A DNA stretch of 36,860 nt, taken from UHGV virus genome UHGV-1448156, one strand, 5' to 3'. The notes under the pieces are model-generated. The model was not told where the DNA came from. It did no database searches and saw only the letters and a program-made list of their open reading frames with translations. This DNA is from a virus. Below, in pieces: positions 30,229 through 35,061 of the stretch (its first letter is position 1; each line of letters begins with the position of its first letter). The translations under genes were made by a program, and so were the position numbers.

Positions 30229-31117
30229 CGTGTTCACCCTCACGAACTTTCAGGTAGGTATTATCGTTAAGCAGGAAATCAAATCCCTTTTTGTGCCAGA
30301 CGGTTCCGCGTTGATGGTTTGGGCGCTCTTCGAACATCCATCGGCAATTTTCGCCAACGTAGCTCAAATAATTTCTCCAGTCCTGCATCGTGAACCCATG
30401 CCCGTCAAGCTGGCGGGTTATCACTCCGGCTTTGCGCCAGAACGTTCGGATCTGGTTTTTACGCTTGTCATTCAGTGCGCGGATTCTTGGAGCTTCAGGA
30501 AGGATTTCGTGGTAAGCATCGACAACATCCTGACAGCTGACGGAAGGTTTTTTCTTGTCAGACTTTTTGTCTGCTGTGGCACTCTCTAATACGTCAGTAT
30601 TAGAGATAATATTATTATATTCTTTATCTGTGGTAATTTGCTGGTAATCTGCTGGTACAGCATTGCTTACAGGCATTGGTATTGCTGGCTTTGAGGTGGT
30701 AATTTGCTGGTAATCTGCTGGTACAAAATTTGACTGATAATCGTCATATTTCTCTACCGAGAAAACTGAGAATTTACCGTGTGAAACCCAGTCAATCATG
30801 CCGAGTTTTTTGAACTTTCTAAGCAGGTACTGAACGCGATCTGGTTTGAGTCCTGTTTCAAACGCCAGAGAGTTTCTACCGCCAAGTAGCTTCCCTCTGC
30901 CTACCAGAATTTCTCCTGCGTCAGTCATTACATACTCAGGCGTATGCTTTGCTTTGAGGATTAAGTGAACCCACAGATGCGCTGCTTCTGCATCCTTGTA
31001 AAACGGCACATCCATAATTTTACGGTGCAGCAAGGCATACCCCTTACCGCTGCTTTGATGCGGTTGTTGTAGCCTTCTGGCCTCTCTGGCTTCGGCTAGA
31101 TTAGATATGTTACTCAT
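30218..31117 (-). CDS. Replication initiator (lambda O-like) containing the origin
   Basis: 299 aa; SD AAGGAG; internal [10 protein letters not shown] repeats encoded by the iterons. Confidence 0.7.
30631..30725. repeat. Origin iterons (ori) inside the initiator gene
   Basis: Identical 29-bp copies TGGTAATTTGCTGGTAATCTGCTGGTACA at 30631-30659 and 30697-30725, a related TGGTATTGCTGG between them, and an AT-rich tract at 30601-30626. Confidence 0.6.
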
Positions 31118-31256
31118 GACCTTTCTCCTTCTGCATCAGCTTCACTTTTTCCAACTCAGCCCGGAATCGACCAGGCGGCTTGAAGCTGGACAGGAAGCGA
31201 TCACGTAGTATGTGTTTGTGAATTTTGTCCTGGTAAGGACTGAGTTGTTTTGTCAT
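31110..31256 (-). CDS. Possible small ORF (48 aa) between cII-like and O-like genes
   Basis: ATG 31256 with SD AGGAG 5 nt upstream; stop overlaps the O-like start; basic peptide [15 protein letters not shown]... Confidence 0.3.
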
Positions 31257-31288
31257 AATTACTCCTGTGGATTGATCCAGTAATTCCC

Positions 31289-31585
31289 TCAGAATTGCAT
31301 ATCAATTTGCTTAAAATCCTCGGTGGCGGCCGGGGATTTTTTCTTTGTGATTTCATCAAGCGCATACTTAAAAGCCCTGCTAATCGGACTGATGTCTGAT
31401 GCCATTCCGAAAGCACACAAGACCGAAGCAATAAATCTCCAGTCCGTTCTGCTTATCTTCGATTCATGACAGCCAATCATCTTTGCCAGACCGCGCTGGG
31501 TAAGCGTTGACAGGTTGATGAGTAAATCAGTTTCAGCGCGATCAATTTCTCGCTGTGTTGGCTTGCTGTAGCTTGCTTGTGCCAT
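31289..31585 (-). CDS. CII-family transcriptional activator
   Basis: 98 aa; helix-turn-helix [15 protein letters not shown] and C-terminal [18 protein letters not shown] resemble lambda CII. Confidence 0.65.
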
Positions 31586-31653
31586 TTGTTAATTTTCCTA
31601 TATTGATATTGAGTTATAGCGGCACACCCAATGGATTTGCCGCTGATGTTTGC

Positions 31654-31694
31654 TCACCCGGTTAGAGGTGAAAGGCCAGAACTGTTAAAGAGCA
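31654..31694 (-). promoter_or_regulatory. nutR (boxA GCTCTTTAA, boxB hairpin with CUAACC loop)
   Basis: Minus strand boxA then 12 nt then UCACCU-CUAACC-GGGUGA, between cro and the cII-like gene. Confidence 0.5.
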
Positions 31695-31700
31695 ATTTGC

Positions 31701-31886
31701 TTATGCCGCTTGGCGGTAAGCACTTTCTTGATACTTCAGGGCGCCAGCTGTAACGATTTCCAATCGATAGGCGTCTTTCTCTGGGATAACTTCTTTCCAC
31801 TGAGAGACTGCTGCATCGCTAATGCCTAGTGCTTTAGCAACAGCACGCTGGGTTCCGAAGTGGTCAATAACATCTTTTTTGTACAT
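31701..31886 (-). CDS. cro: Cro repressor (P22 type)
   Basis: 61 aa MYKKDVIDHFGTQRAVAKALGISDAAVSQWKEV..., matches P22 Cro as recalled. Confidence 0.8.
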   Translation of the reverse strand: MYKKDVIDHFGTQRAVAKALGISDAAVSQWKEVIPEKDAYRLEIVTAGALKYQESAYRQAA

Positions 31887-31966
31887 AGACTCGCTCCGAA
31901 ATTAAAGAACACTTAAATTATCCACCAAAGGAATCTTAAGTCAAGTTTATTTAAGATGTCTTAACT
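31887..31966. promoter_or_regulatory. OR / PR / PRM divergent control region
   Basis: 80 bp between divergent cro and c2; operator-like palindrome TTAAGAtgTCTTAA at 31951-31964 plus degenerate TTAAG-type half-sites. Confidence 0.6.
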
Positions 31967-32617
31967 ATGAATACACAACTGATGGGTGAGCGTATTCGCG
32001 CTCGCAGAAAAGAACTCAAGATTAGGCAGGCTGCCCTTGGCAAGATGGTTGGCGTGTCTAATGTTGCTATTTCCCAATGGGAGCGATCTGAAACTGAGCC
32101 CAATGGCGAAAACCTATTGGCCTTAGCCAAGGCTTTGCAGTGCTCCCCTGATTACCTGTTGAAAGGAGAGGATAGTCTTTCAAACATTGCCTATCACAGC
32201 AGGCATGATCCAAGAGGTTCGTATCCTCTAATTAGTTGGGTAAGCGCAGGATGTTGGATGGAAGCTGTAGAGCCATATCATAGGCGTGCAATAGATAACT
32301 GGTACGACACAACGGTAGATTGTTCTGAAGACTCTTTTTGGCTCGACGTTAAAGGCGATTCAATGACTGCCCCGGCAGGACTGAGTATTCCTGAGGGGAT
32401 GATTATTCTCGTCGACCCAGAAGTCGAACCACGTAATGGAAAGTTGGTAGTCGCCAAACTTGAAGGAGAAAACGAGGCGACATTCAAAAAGTTAGTTATT
32501 GATGCCGGTAGAAAATTCCTGAAACCACTCAATCCACAATACCCAATGATTGAAATCAATGGGAACTGTAAAATCATTGGCGTTGTCGTTGATGCCAAGC
32601 TAGCAAACCTTCCTTAA
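31967..32617 (+). CDS. c2: Immunity repressor C2 (P22 type)
   Basis: 216 aa MNTQLMGERIRARRKELKIRQAALGKMVGVSNVAISQWERSE..., matches P22 C2 as recalled; LexA-like C-terminal domain. Confidence 0.9.
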   Translation: MNTQLMGERIRARRKELKIRQAALGKMVGVSNVAISQWERSETEPNGENLLALAKALQCSPDYLLKGEDSLSNIAYHSRHDPRGSYPLISWVSAGCWMEAVEPYHRRAIDNWYDTTVDCSEDSFWLDVKGDSMTAPAGLSIPEGMIILVDPEVEPRNGKLVVAKLEGENEATFKKLVIDAGRKFLKPLNPQYPMIEINGNCKIIGVVVDAKLANLP

Positions 32618-32640
32618 GGGGCTTTCGCCCCTTTTTTATT
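32618..32640 (+). terminator. Rho-independent terminator after c2
   Basis: GGGGC-TTTC-GCCCC then TTTTTTATTT. Confidence 0.6.
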
Positions 32641-32706
32641 TCCCGTTAAAAATCAAAGACAAACTAAATTCACGCCCATAAAATTAAGTTTTCTTCAAAA
32701 ATGCAC

Positions 32707-32735
32707 TTGACCAATAAATTAAGAAGTCTTAAATT
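32707..32735 (+). promoter_or_regulatory. PL promoter with overlapping OL operator
   Basis: -35 TTGACC (32707-32712), 17-bp spacer, -10 TAAATT (32730-32735); palindrome TTAAGAagTCTTAA at 32719-32732. Confidence 0.55.
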
Positions 32736-32781
32736 TAAGCCATCAGCAGGACGCTGGAAGCCAAACGGAACAGATTGGCAG

Positions 32782-32820
32782 GCTCTTTAACATCGACGGA
32801 CTCTCAACCTAACCGTTGAG
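32782..32820 (+). promoter_or_regulatory. nutL (boxA GCTCTTTAA, boxB CTCAAC-CTAACC-GTTGAG)
   Basis: Same boxA, spacing and loop as nutR with a different complementary stem. Confidence 0.55.
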
Positions 32821-32931
32821 ACCAGAACTTGAGTGGTTTTGGGGATGGCGCGAATTGCAGCTGCAAGACAGCGATCGAGAAGATAAGCACCTCGACGCGT
32901 CATGCGCCAAAGCCACTTAAAGGAGACCATC

Positions 32932-33237
32932 ATGGTAACCATTGTCTGGAAAGAATCCAAAGGTACGGCAAAAAGCCGCTACAAAGCTCGCAGAGCAGAA
33001 CTTATTGCCGAGCGACGCAGTAATGAAGCACTGGCGCGAAAAATTGCGCTAAAGCTCTCTGGTTGCGTCAGAGCAGACAAAGCAGCATCGCTAGGAAGCC
33101 TTTGCTGCAAGAAGAAAGAAGAAGTCGTTCGAAAAAATAGAAGTATTTATTACAAAGATTCAAACCCATTAGGAAACAAAATACATGCAGTCCAAAAAAT
33201 AAAATTGTACAGTAAACTACCGTACGGTGCTTATTGA
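32932..33237 (+). CDS. N: N antiterminator (phage-21-type arginine-rich motif) with divergent AT-rich 3' end
   Basis: ATG 32932 with SD AAGGAG; GTAKSRYKARRAELIAERR matches the phage 21 N RNA-binding peptide as recalled; C-terminus comes from the AT-rich cassette. Confidence 0.7.
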   Translation: MVTIVWKESKGTAKSRYKARRAELIAERRSNEALARKIALKLSGCVRADKAASLGSLCCKKKEEVVRKNRSIYYKDSNPLGNKIHAVQKIKLYSKLPYGAY

Positions 33238-33239
33238 GT

Positions 33240-33578
33240 ATGCTTATGGTGAAAAAGACTATTTATGTTAATCCTGACCGCGGACAAAACAGAAAAGTAT
33301 CTGATAGAGGTCTTACATCTCGAGACAGGAGGAGAATAGCGAGATGGGAAAAAAGGATAGCATATGCATTAAAAAACGGTGTAACACCTGGATTTAATGC
33401 TATAGATGATGGCCCTGAATATAAGATTAATGAAGACCCAATGGACAAAGTTGACAAAGCATTAGCAACACCATTTCCTCGCGATGTCGAAAAAATTGAA
33501 GATGAAAAATATGAGGATGTAATGCACAGAGTTGTTAATCACGCTCACCAACGAAATCCAAATAAAAAATGGTCATAG
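33240..33578 (+). CDS. Hypothetical AT-rich 112-aa charged protein
   Basis: Track start 33234 is TTG; first ATGs at 33240 and 33246; AGA/AGG/ATA-rich codon usage unlike neighbours; own terminator. Confidence 0.5.
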   Translation: MLMVKKTIYVNPDRGQNRKVSDRGLTSRDRRRIARWEKRIAYALKNGVTPGFNAIDDGPEYKINEDPMDKVDKALATPFPRDVEKIEDEKYEDVMHRVVNHAHQRNPNKKWS

Positions 33579-33598
33579 CCCACTTCGGTGGGTTTTTT
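33579..33598 (+). terminator. Rho-independent terminator of the AT-rich cassette
   Basis: CCCAC-TTCG-GTGGG then TTTTTT immediately after the stop codon. Confidence 0.65.
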
Positions 33599-33607
33599 AT
33601 TGTCTGA

Positions 33608-33703
33608 ACAAACCTAATTTACTACCGCAAGCCACGCAGTGAAATGGGTGTGACTTGTGTTGGTCGCCAGAAAATGAAATTAGGCAGCAAACCACTTATT
33701 TGA
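33608..33703 (+). pseudogene. Orphan 3' remnant of an N gene
   Basis: Open frame TNLIYYRKPRSEMGVTCVGRQKMKLGSKPLI* resembles the lambda N C-terminus (..GITCSGRQKIKGKSIPLI) but has no 5' part or start. Confidence 0.55.
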
Positions 33704-33711
33704 GGTGATAT

Positions 33712-33798
33712 ATGGAAGAAGAATTTGAAGAGTTCGAAGAGCATCCTCAGGATGTGATGGAACAATACCAGGACTATCCGTATGACTACGACTATTGA
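33712..33798 (+). CDS. Possible 28-aa acidic peptide (MEEEFEEFEEHPQDVMEQYQDYPYDYDY)
   Basis: ATG 33712 with SD GAGGTGA; overlaps the ral start by 17 nt. Confidence 0.25.
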   Translation: MEEEFEEFEEHPQDVMEQYQDYPYDYDY

Positions 33799-33982
33799 TA
33801 AAAATCAATGGTGTGGACAATTCAAGCGATGCAATGGATGCAAGCTGCAATCGGAATGCATGGTTAAGCCTGAAGAAATGTTTCCTGTAATGGAAGATGG
33901 GAAATATGTCGATAAATGGGCAATACGAACGACGGCAATGATTGCCAGAGAACTTGGTAAACAGAATAACAAGGCTGCCTGA
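33782..33982 (+). CDS. ral: Restriction alleviation protein Ral
   Basis: 66 aa MTTTIDKNQWCGQFKRCNGCKLQSECMV..., matches lambda Ral as recalled. Confidence 0.7.
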   Translation: MTTTIDKNQWCGQFKRCNGCKLQSECMVKPEEMFPVMEDGKYVDKWAIRTTAMIARELGKQNNKAA

Positions 33983-34021
33983 TGGTGGCCTTTATTTTTG
34001 GCATAAACAACAGAGGTGAAT

Positions 34022-34156
34022 ATGAACGCAGTTGAATTTACAAAATGGATGGCAGAGCAAGATATCACAGGAGCCGACGAAAAGGCTGTGTACTACATGG
34101 CTCTGCTATGGATTCACAAAGCAAAAGAGGCTGCAAATGCTCTTGGAGGTGAGTGA
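34022..34156 (+). CDS. Possible small early protein (44 aa)
   Basis: ATG 34022 after AGAGGTGA; stop overlaps the next ATG (TGATG). Confidence 0.3.
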   Translation: MNAVEFTKWMAEQDITGADEKAVYYMALLWIHKAKEAANALGGE

Positions 34157-34341
34157 TGTGCGAGTTTTATGAAGCAGATATCAAACGCCCAGAAATGGCA
34201 AGTGATGCGACATTACGTGATTACTTCGCAGCAAAGTTCATGCAGGGAGTTTGTGCAAATCCAGACAGGCTTTATGACAACGAACCACTTGCTAAAGAAG
34301 CTTATGCGATGGCAGACGCAATGCTCAAAGCTCGCGAATAA
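34156..34341 (+). CDS. Hypothetical early protein (61 aa)
   Basis: ATG 34156 with SD GGAGG 7 nt upstream (track start 34153 is GTG). Confidence 0.4.
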   Translation: MCEFYEADIKRPEMASDATLRDYFAAKFMQGVCANPDRLYDNEPLAKEAYAMADAMLKARE

Positions 34342-34436
34342 GCACTGTGTATTCATTCCAACGAGTGAATACACGGAGCAATGTCGCTCGTAACTAAACA
34401 GGAGCCGACTTGTTCTGATTATTGGAAATCTTCTTT

Positions 34437-34463
34437 GCCCTCCAATGTGAGGGCGATTTTTTA
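34437..34463 (+). terminator. Rho-independent terminator inside the early-left operon
   Basis: GCCCTC-CAATGT-GAGGGC then GATTTTTTA; preceded by a 9-bp-stem hairpin at 34347-34374. Confidence 0.45.
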
Positions 34464-34482
34464 TCTATGAGGAAATGAATAG

Positions 34483-34851
34483 ATGTCAAACATCAAAAAA
34501 TACATCATTGATTACGACTGGAAAGCATCAATAGAAATTGAAATCGACCATGACGTAATGACAGAGGAAAAACTTCACCAGATTAATAATTTCTGGTCAG
34601 ACTCTGAATACAGACTCAAAAAACACGGCTCTGTATTAAATGCTGTATTAATCATGCTAGCGCAACATGCTCTGCTTATAGCAATTTCAAGCGACTTAAA
34701 TGCATATGGTGTTGTGTGTGAGTTCGACTGGAATGATGGAAATGGTCAGGAAGGATGGCCTTCAATGGATGGTAGCGAAGGAATAAGAATTACCGATATC
34801 GACACATCTGGAATATTTGATTCAGATGATATGACTATCAAAGCCGCCTGA
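34483..34851 (+). CDS. Hypothetical early protein (122 aa, acidic)
   Basis: ATG 34483 with GAGGA upstream. Confidence 0.5.
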   Translation: MSNIKKYIIDYDWKASIEIEIDHDVMTEEKLHQINNFWSDSEYRLKKHGSVLNAVLIMLAQHALLIAISSDLNAYGVVCEFDWNDGNGQEGWPSMDGSEGIRITDIDTSGIFDSDDMTIKAA

Positions 34852-34926
34852 GCGCGGCTTTACCGCATACCAATAATGCTTCACGAGAGGCATTTTCGTT
34901 ATGCAATCAAATATAAGGAGTCACCC

Positions 34927-35061
34927 ATGATGCACTTTCAGCTCGCGGGTAGCGGCGTCATGTCCGCTTTCTACCCGCACGAATCTGAATTATCACGCCG
35001 AGTTAAACAATTAATCAGAGCAGCAAAGAAACAACTGGAGGCGTTATGCGCAATGAAATAG
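34927..35061 (+). CDS. CIII-like protein (44 aa)
   Basis: SD AAGGAG 6 nt upstream; MMHFQLAGSG..PHESELSRRVKQLIRAAKKQLEAL resembles the lambda CIII pattern MQYAIAGW..PSESLLERITRKLRDGWKRL. Confidence 0.45.
   Translation: MMHFQLAGSGVMSAFYPHESELSRRVKQLIRAAKKQLEALCAMK

What the first reader, a model, noticed from the sequence alone, without database searches (positions are those of the whole stretch)
33100..33703. AT-rich cassette recombined into the N gene: chimeric N 3' end, new 112-aa ORF, terminator, and an orphaned N C-terminus
Seen in sequence: N begins with a phage-21-type arginine-rich motif, then from about 33110 composition turns markedly AT-rich. In that AT-rich DNA the N frame continues to a divergent but N-like C-terminus (RKNRSIYYKDSNPLGNKIHAVQKIKLYSKLP). 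A 112-aa charged ORF with rare-codon usage follows, then a tight terminator (33579-33598). Immediately after the terminator lies a second, start-less N C-terminus (33608-33703) whose stop abuts the SD of the next gene. Inference: about 0.5 kb from another phage was spliced into N by recombination within N, bringing a passenger gene and leaving the original 3' end as a remnant. The passenger sits in the ral neighbourhood, where anti-restriction and exclusion functions often reside.
Basis: partly seen in the sequence, partly recalled or inferred. Interest (0 to 1): 0.6.

Follow-up and report, generated by a model that had tools for sequence, protein, structure and literature searches.

The report
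Nun exclusion gene inside phage N
The "new 112-aa ORF" is the well-studied phage HK022 Nun protein, which lets a prophage block infection by lambda-like phages; here it sits with its own promoter and terminator in the end of a phage-21-type N gene, an arrangement already annotated in sequenced phages, so the finding is real but ordinary.

Summary
N is identical to phage 21 N up to about 33116. It then switches to a 31% GC, N-like 3' end (33117-33237). A 112-aa ORF follows (33240-33578), then a terminator (33577-33600). After that comes a start-less copy of the phage 21 N C-terminus (33608-33703) that abuts the next gene.

The passenger gene is not new. It is HK022 Nun, 108/109 residues identical to PDB 6ALG chain N, with an RNA-binding motif identical to PDB 1HJI. 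The nun promoter hexamers annotated in the HK022-immunity hybrid phage O276 are identical here and lie inside the chimeric N 3' end.

The cassette is therefore a promoter-gene-terminator moron. In a lysogen it most likely makes Nun, which arrests RNA polymerase on lambda-type nut transcripts. The prophage's own nut sites are phage-21 type, so it should escape its own Nun.

The same N-Nun-remnant layout occurs in phages mEp235, mEpX1 and PA28, where N and Nun are annotated. It also occurs in about 58 of 73 IMG/VR nun loci, and the nun cassette itself is in 221 of 5426 complete E. coli genomes. The "chimeric" N C-terminus is the normal C-terminal type of Salmonella P22-like N proteins, so N is probably functional.

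Verdict: observation confirmed, interpretation supported, already known, low interest. Minor evolutionary points: HK022 itself keeps this N fossil upstream of nun, and N-nun tandems appear to be the usual arrangement.

The parts
32707..32735 (+). PL-like early-left promoter (TTGACC-17-TAAATT), just downstream of the cI/C2-type repressor gene (31967-32617) and its terminator (32616-32633).
   Evidence: Consensus scan. It lies between the repressor gene and nutL, as expected for an early-left promoter; PL itself is not annotated in mEp235 or DE3. Promoter activity is inferred.
32782..32821 (+). nutL of phage-21 type: boxA GCTCTTTAACA (32782-32792) and boxB hairpin TCTCAAC-CTAACC-GTTGAGA (32802-32821).
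   Evidence: The sequence is 100% identical to the DE3 (imm21) and mEp235 nutL region. There is a unique exact boxB match. The hairpin folds at -9.3 kcal/mol and the inverted repeat is detected.
31654..31693 (-). nutR of phage-21 type on the opposite strand: boxA GCTCTTTAACA (31693-31683) and boxB hairpin UCACCU-CUAACC-GGGUGA (31671-31654).
   Evidence: Sequence read and fold. mEp235 annotates a boxA at the equivalent place. That this matches the phage 21 nutR boxB used in PDB 1NYB is from my own knowledge.
32932..33237 (+). N antitermination gene (101 aa), a natural chimera. 32932-33116 is phage-21 type (RNA-binding motif plus middle region). 33117-33237 is an AT-rich 3' end of the P22/ES18/L type (..NPLGNKIHAVQKIKL..).
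   Evidence: PHROG 271 'anti-termination protein N-like', E = 4.6e-31. The Pfam N_peptide match is below the cut-off. The gene is annotated as N in mEp235.
33185..33213 (+). PNun, the constitutive nun promoter: -35 ATGCAG (33185-33190) and -10 TACAGT (33208-33213) preceded by TGT. It lies inside the N coding sequence.
   Evidence: The hexamers are annotated as 'nun gene promoter' in phage O276 (MH547045) and are identical in the window. Activity here is inferred.
33240..33578 (+). nun: the HK022-type Nun transcription arrest and exclusion factor. 112 aa from the ATG at 33240; alternative starts are the ATG at 33246 and the GTG at 33249, which is residue 1 of the 109-aa numbering used in the literature.
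   Evidence: 108/109 residues identical to PDB 6ALG chain N, and the RNA-binding motif is identical to PDB 1HJI chain B. PHROG 5632, E = 4.5e-71. 96.8% nt identity to HK022. dN/dS is 0.03-0.15 against diverged alleles.
33577..33600 (+). Intrinsic terminator of the nun cassette (AGCCCAC-TTCG-GTGGGTT plus a T-run).
   Evidence: It is conserved in about 60 nun loci.
33608..33703 (+). Orphaned 3' end of the phage-21-type N gene (TNLIYYRKPRSEMGVTCVGRQKMKLGSKPLI*). It has no start codon at its 5' end, and its stop codon overlaps the Shine-Dalgarno sequence of the next gene.
   Evidence: Pairwise alignment to DE3 N. It is present in most nun loci, in two allelic forms with internal mosaic breakpoints.
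33712..33982 (+). Resident downstream genes, given as context: orf28-like (33712-33798) and ral restriction alleviation (33782-33982). They are contiguous with N in phage 21/DE3.
   Evidence: PHROG 16060 and PHROG 1055. DE3 annotation.

Best explanation
The region is the nun moron, a self-contained promoter-gene-terminator unit. It comprises PNun, nun and an intrinsic terminator, and it is fused into the 3' end of a phage-21-type N gene of a lambdoid prophage.

Shown here:
- The protein is HK022 Nun. The RNA-binding motif and the C-terminal polymerase-arrest segment are both identical to the solved structures.
- The annotated promoter hexamers and a terminator are intact.
- The cassette is compositionally foreign. 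Relative to phage 21 it replaces about 24-30 nt of N, and most of the old N 3' end is left as a dead copy.
- The incoming DNA supplies a new, in-frame N C-terminus of the type native to Salmonella P22-like N proteins.

Inferred mechanism, from established Nun biology:
- In the lysogen, PNun transcribes nun constitutively.
- The terminator stops these transcripts, which carry no nut site, before ral, cIII and kil.
- Nun's arginine-rich motif binds the boxB hairpin of lambda-type nut RNA on a superinfecting phage.
- Its C-terminal tail wedges into RNA polymerase and blocks translocation, so the invader's early transcription is arrested.
- The prophage's own nutL and nutR are phage-21 type and are read by its own N21 motif, so it should not be hit by its own Nun.
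- During lytic growth, N-modified transcription from PL reads through the nun terminator.

Inferred origin: one illegitimate crossover joined a nun-carrying phage, just past its terminator, to the inside of N in a phage-21-like genome. Homologous exchange within N also took place. The result has since spread widely.
For: Identity of the protein.

Promoter. Terminator.

Junctions against phage 21 (DE3) and HK022. Composition.

Own nut sites are 21-type, and no lambda-type boxB (up to 1 mismatch) occurs in the window or in any of the 77 loci examined.

The same arrangement occurs in isolated, viable phages where the genes are annotated N and Nun (mEp235, mEpX1, PA28). It occurs in about 58 of 73 IMG/VR nun loci. 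The nun cassette is in 221 of 5426 E. coli genomes.

nun is under strong purifying selection, omega 0.03-0.15.

The new N C-terminus is 66-77% identical over most of its length to the native C-termini of ES18 gp54, BTP1 N and phage L/ST64T gene 24, none of which has nun.

Nun mechanism and lambda specificity: PMC5386594 and PMC4124055. Constitutive prophage promoters for nun: King, Madsen and Weisberg 2000, known here only from its title in the reference list of PMC5386594.
Against: Nothing was measured in this strain. Promoter activity, Nun production and lambda exclusion are inferred from near-identity to HK022.

The protein has one substitution relative to HK022 Nun: R instead of S at residue 11 of the 109-aa numbering. 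It lies outside the RNA-binding motif and the C-terminal tail.

Activity of the chimeric N is inferred only from three things: the viability of phages that carry it, homology of its C-terminus to functional N alleles, and a weak purifying-selection signal (omega about 0.31, based on about 16 differences).

The order of the recombination events cannot be fixed. L067 and the HK75-type loci lack the remnant.
Confidence: 0.9

Rival explanations
1. There was no insertion. N with this C-terminus followed directly by nun is the ancestral operon. On this view the phage 21 arrangement (N-orf28-ral) arose by deletion of nun, and the 'remnant' is unrelated to any insertion event.
For: N-nun tandems without a remnant exist in distant relatives, for example Providencia L082. 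One close locus, L067, also lacks the remnant. The B-type C-terminus is a genuine N allele family.
Against: Phage 21 N contains about 24-30 nt (AEEVERKQ..) that are absent from the window, so it cannot be derived from this arrangement by a simple deletion. GC drops sharply from 49% to 31% exactly where identity to N21 ends. A second N 3' end, almost identical to that of phage 21, sits after the terminator and continues into the same orf28-ral genes as in phage 21. This view is partly compatible with the main model, since the donor phage probably did carry an ancestral N-nun tandem.
Confidence: 0.07
2. The orphaned N 3' end is not inert. It is kept because it does something. It could act as a homology 'linker' that lets the nun cassette recombine into any N gene. 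It could be a translation-coupling or Shine-Dalgarno context for the next gene. It could even be translated.
For: The remnant is retained in nearly all nun loci, including put-type phages that have no N 5' end (L054, L056). A much more diverged cassette, L068 (Nun 67% identical), keeps a remnant PGERGITCSGRQKMKGRSIPLI* at the homologous junction, and many of its codon differences are synonymous (by inspection). L070 and L075-L077 also carry N 3' relics after nun-like genes. The remnant's stop codon overlaps the downstream Shine-Dalgarno sequence.
Against: There is no start codon at the 5' end of the remnant, and the in-frame ATGs inside it are not conserved: the second allele (..KQRGKSIPAYYD*) has no internal ATG. 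The two remnant alleles correspond to C-terminal types seen in intact N proteins of other phages, and there are mosaic breakpoints inside the remnant. Protein-like conservation can therefore be imported by recombination with functional N genes, without any selection in place. HK022, HK75 and L067 do without the remnant.
Confidence: 0.2
3. The 0.5-kb block is an autonomous mobile element that inserted itself into N, such as an insertion sequence, a group I or II intron, or a homing-endonuclease cassette.
For: The block has discrete boundaries, a foreign composition and a single ORF, and it interrupts a gene.
Against: There are no terminal inverted repeats or target-site duplication. No Rfam family, intron or other, matched in 31000-35000. 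The ORF is Nun, not a transposase or nuclease. The two flanks do not rebuild an intact N.
Confidence: 0.02

Closest known systems
Phage HK022 Nun (transcription arrest and lambda-exclusion factor; PDB 6ALG, 1HJI) and its PNun promoter
   Same: The protein is 108/109 identical. The RNA-binding motif and C-terminal arrest tail are identical. The annotated promoter hexamers are the same. The upstream 115 nt of N-like sequence are shared. The position just downstream of the immunity region in the early-left operon is the same.
   Different: HK022 has no N gene and uses put RNA for antitermination. There the cassette follows putL, and IS903 lies downstream. Here the cassette is fused in frame to a working-looking phage-21-type N, has a slightly different terminator, and is followed by an orphaned N 3' end plus orf28-ral.
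Phages mEp235, mEpX1, PA28, Kapi1, PDP110P1 and Stx1a-converting phages (N followed by Nun)
   Same: They have the same N21 5' part, the same N-like 3' end, nun, the terminator and the remnant, at 91-99% nt identity. N and Nun are already annotated as such in mEp235, mEpX1 and PA28.
   Different: Only the genes further downstream differ. For example, mEp235 has a 207-aa hypothetical gene where this window has orf28-ral.
Phage 21 N / imm21 region (as in phage DE3); PDB 1NYB N peptide-boxB complex
   Same: The repressor, PL, nutL, nutR and the first 185 nt of N match at 98-100% identity. The remnant and orf28-ral continue as in phage 21.
   Different: Phage 21 has an uninterrupted 99-aa N and no nun.
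N (gene 24) of Salmonella P22-like phages ES18, L, ST64T and BTP1
   Same: The C-terminal ..KNRIYY.D.NPLGNKIHAVQ.. segment is the same type as the new C-terminus of the chimeric N, at 66-77% aa identity over most of the segment.
   Different: They have a P22-type RNA-binding motif and middle region, normal GC content (about 46%) in this segment, and no nun downstream.
Phage 'morons' (promoter-gene-terminator units expressed from prophages, as defined for HK97 and HK022)
   Same: The cassette has its own promoter, a single gene, its own terminator and a deviant base composition. It is absent from an otherwise near-identical genome, and its function benefits the lysogen (concept in PMC3594210).
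   Different: Classic morons sit between genes. This one overlaps the 3' end of an essential regulatory gene and supplies that gene's new C-terminus.

Membership tests
Nun (HK022-type transcription arrest factor) | N-terminal arginine-rich motif that binds lambda boxB RNA (residues about 20-44 in the 109-aa numbering). | tested here: met
   DRGLTSRDRRRIARWEKRIAYALKNG is 26/26 identical to PDB 1HJI chain B, the Nun peptide solved with lambda boxB.
Nun (HK022-type transcription arrest factor) | C-terminal polymerase-arrest segment: His cluster ..VVNHAHQ.. and terminal KKW(S). | tested here: met
   Identical over the whole C-terminal half to PDB 6ALG chain N, 108/109 overall. The motif is invariant across diverged homologues.
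Nun (HK022-type transcription arrest factor) | Expressed from a repressed prophage by a constitutive promoter just upstream of the gene. | tested here: inconclusive
   The annotated PNun -35 and -10 hexamers of O276/HK022 are identical in the window. Transcription itself cannot be tested with these tools.
Nun (HK022-type transcription arrest factor) | Excludes phages that use lambda-type nut sites, while the carrier phage lacks such sites. | tested here: inconclusive
   The carrier has 21-type nutL and nutR and no lambda-type boxB. None of the 77 loci has a lambda-type boxB. The exclusion phenotype is not testable here.
N antiterminator, phage-21 type | Phage 21-specific arginine-rich motif with cognate boxA/boxB nut sites downstream of PL and PR. 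| tested here: met
   Residues 8-29 are 22/22 identical to PDB 1NYB chain A. nutL is 100% identical to imm21. nutR has a 21-type hairpin.
N antiterminator, phage-21 type | Family-level profile match. | tested here: inconclusive
   Pfam N_peptide scores 18.4 bits, below the 27.9 cut-off. PHROG 271 'anti-termination protein N-like' matches at E = 4.6e-31. No NCBIfam model matches.
N antiterminator, phage-21 type | Native phage 21 C-terminal segment (..SKPRSEMGVTCVGRQKIKLGSKPLI). | tested here: not met
   It is replaced by a P22/ES18/L-type C-terminus. The native segment survives only as the untranslated remnant 33608-33703. The gene is therefore a chimera of two N subtypes, not a pure phage 21 N.
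Moron (autonomous prophage-expressed cassette) | Own promoter, own terminator and deviant composition, and absent from a close relative. | tested here: met
   Promoter by identity to the annotated PNun. Terminator. GC is 36% against 50% for the window. The cassette is absent from phage 21/DE3, which is otherwise 98-100% identical in the flanks.
Transposable element / intron / homing cassette | Terminal repeats and target duplication, a transposase or nuclease, or an intron RNA fold. | tested here: not met
   No terminal repeats or target duplication. No Rfam match. The ORF is Nun.

The most novel reading that the evidence does not exclude
N followed directly by nun is the normal, ancestral arrangement of the Nun family, and HK022, the textbook N-less phage, is a derivative. 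On this reading HK022 lost the 5' two-thirds of an N gene when put RNA took over antitermination, and it still carries the last 115 nt or so of N upstream of nun as a fossil that now houses PNun. The orphaned N 3' ends that trail nun, seen even in cassettes only 45-67% identical, would be scars that double as homology patches. These patches would let the exclusion cassette hop between unrelated N genes by recombination.
Probability: 0.4. Interest if true: 0.35.

Novelty: already known. Interest (0 to 1): 0.18.

Why it matters
The practical value is in annotation and interpretation.
- About 4% of complete E. coli genomes carry this cassette. RefSeq calls both N and Nun "hypothetical protein" because neither Pfam nor NCBIfam has a Nun model.
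- Lysogens of such prophages, including Stx1a-converting phages, are predicted to exclude lambda-nut phages. That matters for phage-host range studies and for prophage competition.
- In evolutionary terms, the locus is a clean worked example of how a moron spreads by recombination inside an essential gene.
- It also suggests that the N-less state of HK022 is derived.

None of this changes what is known about how Nun or N work.

Tried and rejected
- Pfam and NCBIfam on the 112-aa ORF gave nothing. Identification came from nucleotide similarity, PDB and PHROGs.
- Mobile element or intron: rejected. There are no terminal repeats or target duplication and no Rfam hit.
- In-place translation of the remnant: I looked for a conserved start codon and found none. 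The internal ATGs are not conserved between remnant alleles.
- Self-targeting by Nun: rejected. There is no lambda-type boxB in the window or in the nun loci.
- A naive codon comparison of the N 3' end with L058 and L061 failed because of a 1-nt offset and was discarded. Only the L065 and HK022 comparisons were used.
- Six literature searches of the held library found no paper describing the N::nun mosaic or the N fossil in HK022. Older subscription papers (Oberto et al. 1989; Juhala et al. 2000; King et al. 2000) are not held, so prior description cannot be excluded.
- The scan of species-representative genomes found only four loci, so the family is taxonomically narrow.
- I did not use structure prediction, fold search or the large protein-database searches. 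Solved structures of the same proteins already exist.
Full report
**What is there**

The window is a lambdoid prophage, 100% identical over this region to E. coli BR1220 (NZ_CP093068.1). Reading rightward on the + strand, the order is as follows.
- A P22-C2/imm21-type repressor gene (31967-32617) with its terminator.
- A PL-like promoter (32707-32735).
- nutL: boxA at 32782-32792 and boxB at 32802-32821.
- N (32932-33237).
- A 112-aa ORF (33240-33578).
- A terminator (33577-33600).
- A start-less N C-terminus (33608-33703).
- An orf28-like gene and ral.

GC content is 49% in the first 185 nt of N, 31% in the last 121 nt, 37% in the ORF, 43% in the remnant and 50% over the whole window.

**Identity of the passenger**

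The 112-aa ORF is HK022 Nun.
- Window 33120-33595 is 96.8% identical in DNA to the HK022 nun region (X16093, AF069308).
- The protein is 108/109 identical to PDB 6ALG chain N. The one difference is R for S at residue 11.
- Its arginine-rich motif is 26/26 identical to the Nun peptide of PDB 1HJI.
- PHROG 5632 "Nun-like transcription termination factor" matches end to end at E = 4.5e-71.

Pfam and NCBIfam have no model for it. That explains why RefSeq labels both this gene and N as "hypothetical protein".

**Cassette anatomy**

Phage O276 is a lambda hybrid with HK022 immunity. Its record annotates the nun promoter hexamers. The same ATGCAG and TACAGT hexamers occur in the window at 33185-33190 and 33208-33213. 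That places them inside the 3' end of the N reading frame.

A 7-bp GC-rich hairpin plus T-run follows nun directly (-10.3 kcal/mol, z = -2.45). The unit is thus promoter, gene and terminator with deviant composition, which is a moron in the sense used for HK97 and HK022 (concept: PMC3594210).

**Junctions**

Against phage 21 N, read from the imm21 phage DE3, the window is essentially identical up to about 33116. Identity then falls to about 65%, although the sequence stays alignable and in frame.
- New end of N: ..KKKEEVVRKNRSIYYKDSNPLGNKIHAVQKIKLYSKLPYGAY*
- Phage 21..KKAEEVERKQNRIYYSKPRSEMGVTCVGRQKIKLGSKPLI*

HK022 similarity begins at the shared AGAAGTCG (about 33120) and ends at the terminator. 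After the T-run, homology to phage 21 N resumes at about 33607-33613. It continues nearly perfectly through the N stop codon, the Shine-Dalgarno sequence, orf28 and ral.

Relative to phage 21, about 24-30 nt of N are missing and about 490 nt are added. There are no terminal repeats or target duplications and no RNA-family match. This is the signature of recombination, not of transposition or an intron.

**The chimeric N**

Its RNA-binding motif (residues 8-29) is identical to the phage 21 N peptide in PDB 1NYB. nutL and nutR are phage-21 type.

Its new C-terminus is not an oddity. The motif ..KNRIYY.D.NPLGNKIHAVQ.. is the native C-terminus of N (gene 24) in Salmonella phages ES18, L, ST64T and BTP1. 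None of these carries nun. In the phage collection, 48 records hold this C-terminal type and 30 hold Nun.

N21-related genes in E. coli genomes are themselves mosaics. Their breakpoints recur near nt 96, 192 and 208-220 of N21. So the last 35 codons or so of N behave as an exchangeable module.

The N reading frame is open in the diverged alleles examined. Against the most diverged in-frame allele (L065), dN/dS is about 0.31, though this rests on only about 16 differences. Phages carrying this N (mEp235, mEpX1, PA28, Kapi1) are isolated, propagating phages. I therefore consider the chimeric N functional. This is an inference.

**How common the arrangement is**

The nun cassette occurs in 221 of 5426 complete E. 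coli genomes. Of 73 IMG/VR loci encoding a Nun relative, about 58 have exactly the window's layout: N21 5' part, N-like 3' end, nun, terminator and remnant.

The variants are informative.
- HK022, O276 and HK75 have putL plus the same 115-nt N-like 3' end plus nun, with no remnant.
- L054 and L056 have putL and also the remnant.
- L067 has the chimeric N and nun but HK022-type downstream sequence and no remnant. There, nun joins directly to what is position 34342 in this window.
- L064, L065 and L069 have the N-like 3' end, nun and the remnant, but their N 5' region differs. In L065 it encodes a different arginine-rich motif.
- The remnant comes in two allelic forms..KMKLGSKPLI* and ..KQRGKSIPAYYD*. 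The second has a phage-L-type N ending. Mosaic breakpoints lie inside the remnant.

**More distant relatives**

- A Providencia prophage has a 66-aa N-like gene immediately followed by a 96-aa Nun-like gene.
- L068 (Nun 67% identical) has N, a 147-aa ORF, then nun, the terminator and a diverged remnant at a homologous junction.
- L070 has putL, then nun, then a remnant of the NPLGNKIHAVQ type.
- L075 has an N of another family followed by an 88-aa Nun-like protein. Its N-terminus (MDAQARRREKRKEKQEEWKRQN) resembles the lambda N motif. Several N 3' relics follow it. L076 and L077 carry the same 45%-identical Nun relative, and L076 also has an N 3' relic downstream.

nun is thus typically the gene right after N. 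N 3' scars around it are recurrent.

**Mechanism**

The shown parts are the sequence identities above.

The inferred parts rest on published Nun biology (PMC5386594, PMC4124055).
- Nun binds lambda boxB in nascent nut RNA through its arginine-rich motif and competes with lambda N.
- Its C-terminal segment fits into the elongation complex and blocks translocation, so lambda early transcription is arrested.
- Nun is made constitutively in HK022 lysogens. This comes from King et al. 2000, known here only by its title. The details of PNun and PNun' are from my memory of that paper.

Here the carrier's own nut sites are 21-type. No lambda-type boxB (up to 1 mismatch) occurs in the window or in any of the 77 loci examined. 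This fits the known specificity of Nun for lambda nut sites.

The terminator should confine PNun transcripts, which lack a nut site, to nun. N-modified transcription from PL should read through it. This is inference from standard N biology.

**Origin**

The simplest history has three steps.
1. A donor phage carried N (P22/ES18-type C-terminus, AT-rich) followed by nun and a terminator.
2. One illegitimate crossover just past the terminator joined it to the inside of N in a phage-21-like genome. This created the remnant, followed by orf28 and ral.
3. Homologous exchange in the conserved middle of N placed the N21 5' part upstream.

The low GC of the cassette and the N-nun tandem in Providencia hint at a lower-GC enterobacterial source. 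That is speculation. The order of events cannot be settled with the present data.

**Comparison and verdict**

This is HK022 Nun in a context already deposited and annotated for mEp235, mEpX1 and PA28. The guess at an exclusion function was correct, but the gene's identity was missed.

Novelty: already known. Interest: low.

The only mildly new points are evolutionary. HK022's nun is preceded by the 3' end of an N gene. N-nun tandems appear to be the usual arrangement. N 3' scars may act as homology patches for cassette spread. I found no paper on these points in the held library. The key older papers are not held, so prior description cannot be ruled out.

Noticed in passing
L002 (HK022, AF069308) 1501-1617; equivalent to window 33120-33237: HK022 is famous for having no N gene. 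It nonetheless keeps about 115 nt that encode the last 38 codons or so of an N protein (..EVVRKNRSIYCKDSNPLGNKIHAVQKIKLYSKLPYGAY*) between putL and nun. This fossil contains the annotated PNun promoter. It suggests that HK022 descends from an N-nun phage.
   Followed up: partly
L075 2183-3240 (also L076, L077): An 88-aa Nun-like protein has an N-terminus (MDAQARRREKRKEKQEEWKRQN) that resembles the lambda N arginine-rich motif, fused to a Nun-type C-terminus (..EDVMHRVVNHAHQRNSNKKW). In L075 it directly follows an N gene of another family and is followed by three separate N 3' relics (RQKMRGKSIPLI*, CLPQVAIFAAGHR.., RGKSIPLI*). L076 and L077 carry the same Nun relative.
   Followed up: partly
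L068 2833-2940; L070 793-936: Diverged nun cassettes (67% and 66% aa identity) still carry an orphaned N C-terminus after nun. In L068 the junction is homologous to the window's, and many codon differences are synonymous. The scar is therefore old or is repeatedly refreshed by recombination with intact N genes.
   Followed up: partly
window 33608-33703, compared with L007, L010, L013, L024, L037, L039, L040, L052 and others: The remnant exists in two allelic forms, ..VTCVGRQKMKLGSKPLI* and ..CSGRQKQRGKSIPAYYD*. Crossover points lie inside the 96 nt. The second ending matches the N of Salmonella phage L.
   Followed up: partly
window 32932-33578; NZ_CP093068.1 MM431_RS09110 and MM431_RS09105: RefSeq/PGAP annotates both N and Nun as 'hypothetical protein' in the source genome and in the other sampled E. 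coli genomes that carry the cassette. Pfam and NCBIfam have no Nun model, and the Pfam N_peptide match for this N falls below the cut-off.
   Followed up: yes
L082 (Providencia sp. Je.9.19) 2311-2803: A 66-aa N-like gene is followed at once by a 96-aa Nun-like gene (40% identical, same ..MYRVVNHAHQRSASKKW tail). No remnant ORF is seen downstream. This is the most distant N-nun tandem found.
   Followed up: partly
window 33581-34341, compared with L067 and L057 (HK75): In HK75-type loci the nun terminator region joins directly to the sequence found at window 34342. The window's 760-bp block (remnant, orf28, ral and two small ORFs) is therefore an alternative module between nun and the DUF2528/ea10-like gene.
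   Followed up: partly
E. coli genomes: Matches to phage 21 N in 1143 genomes are often partial (nt 96-300, 1-192, 208-300 or 220-300). N is therefore a mosaic gene with recurrent breakpoints between the RNA-binding motif, the middle region and the C-terminal segment.
   Followed up: partly
window 33207-33225: An inverted repeat (GTACAGTAAACTACCGTAC) overlaps the PNun -10 hexamer and the predicted start of the nun transcript. The scan scored it as terminator-like on the minus strand. Its significance is unknown.
   Followed up: no
window 33240-33578 (Nun residues 84-112): PHROG 12139, a 289-aa family of unknown function, matches the Nun C-terminal tail at its own C-terminus (E = 2.5e-4). PHROG 22612 (73 aa) matches Nun residues 23-68. 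These may be other proteins that reuse Nun modules.
   Followed up: no
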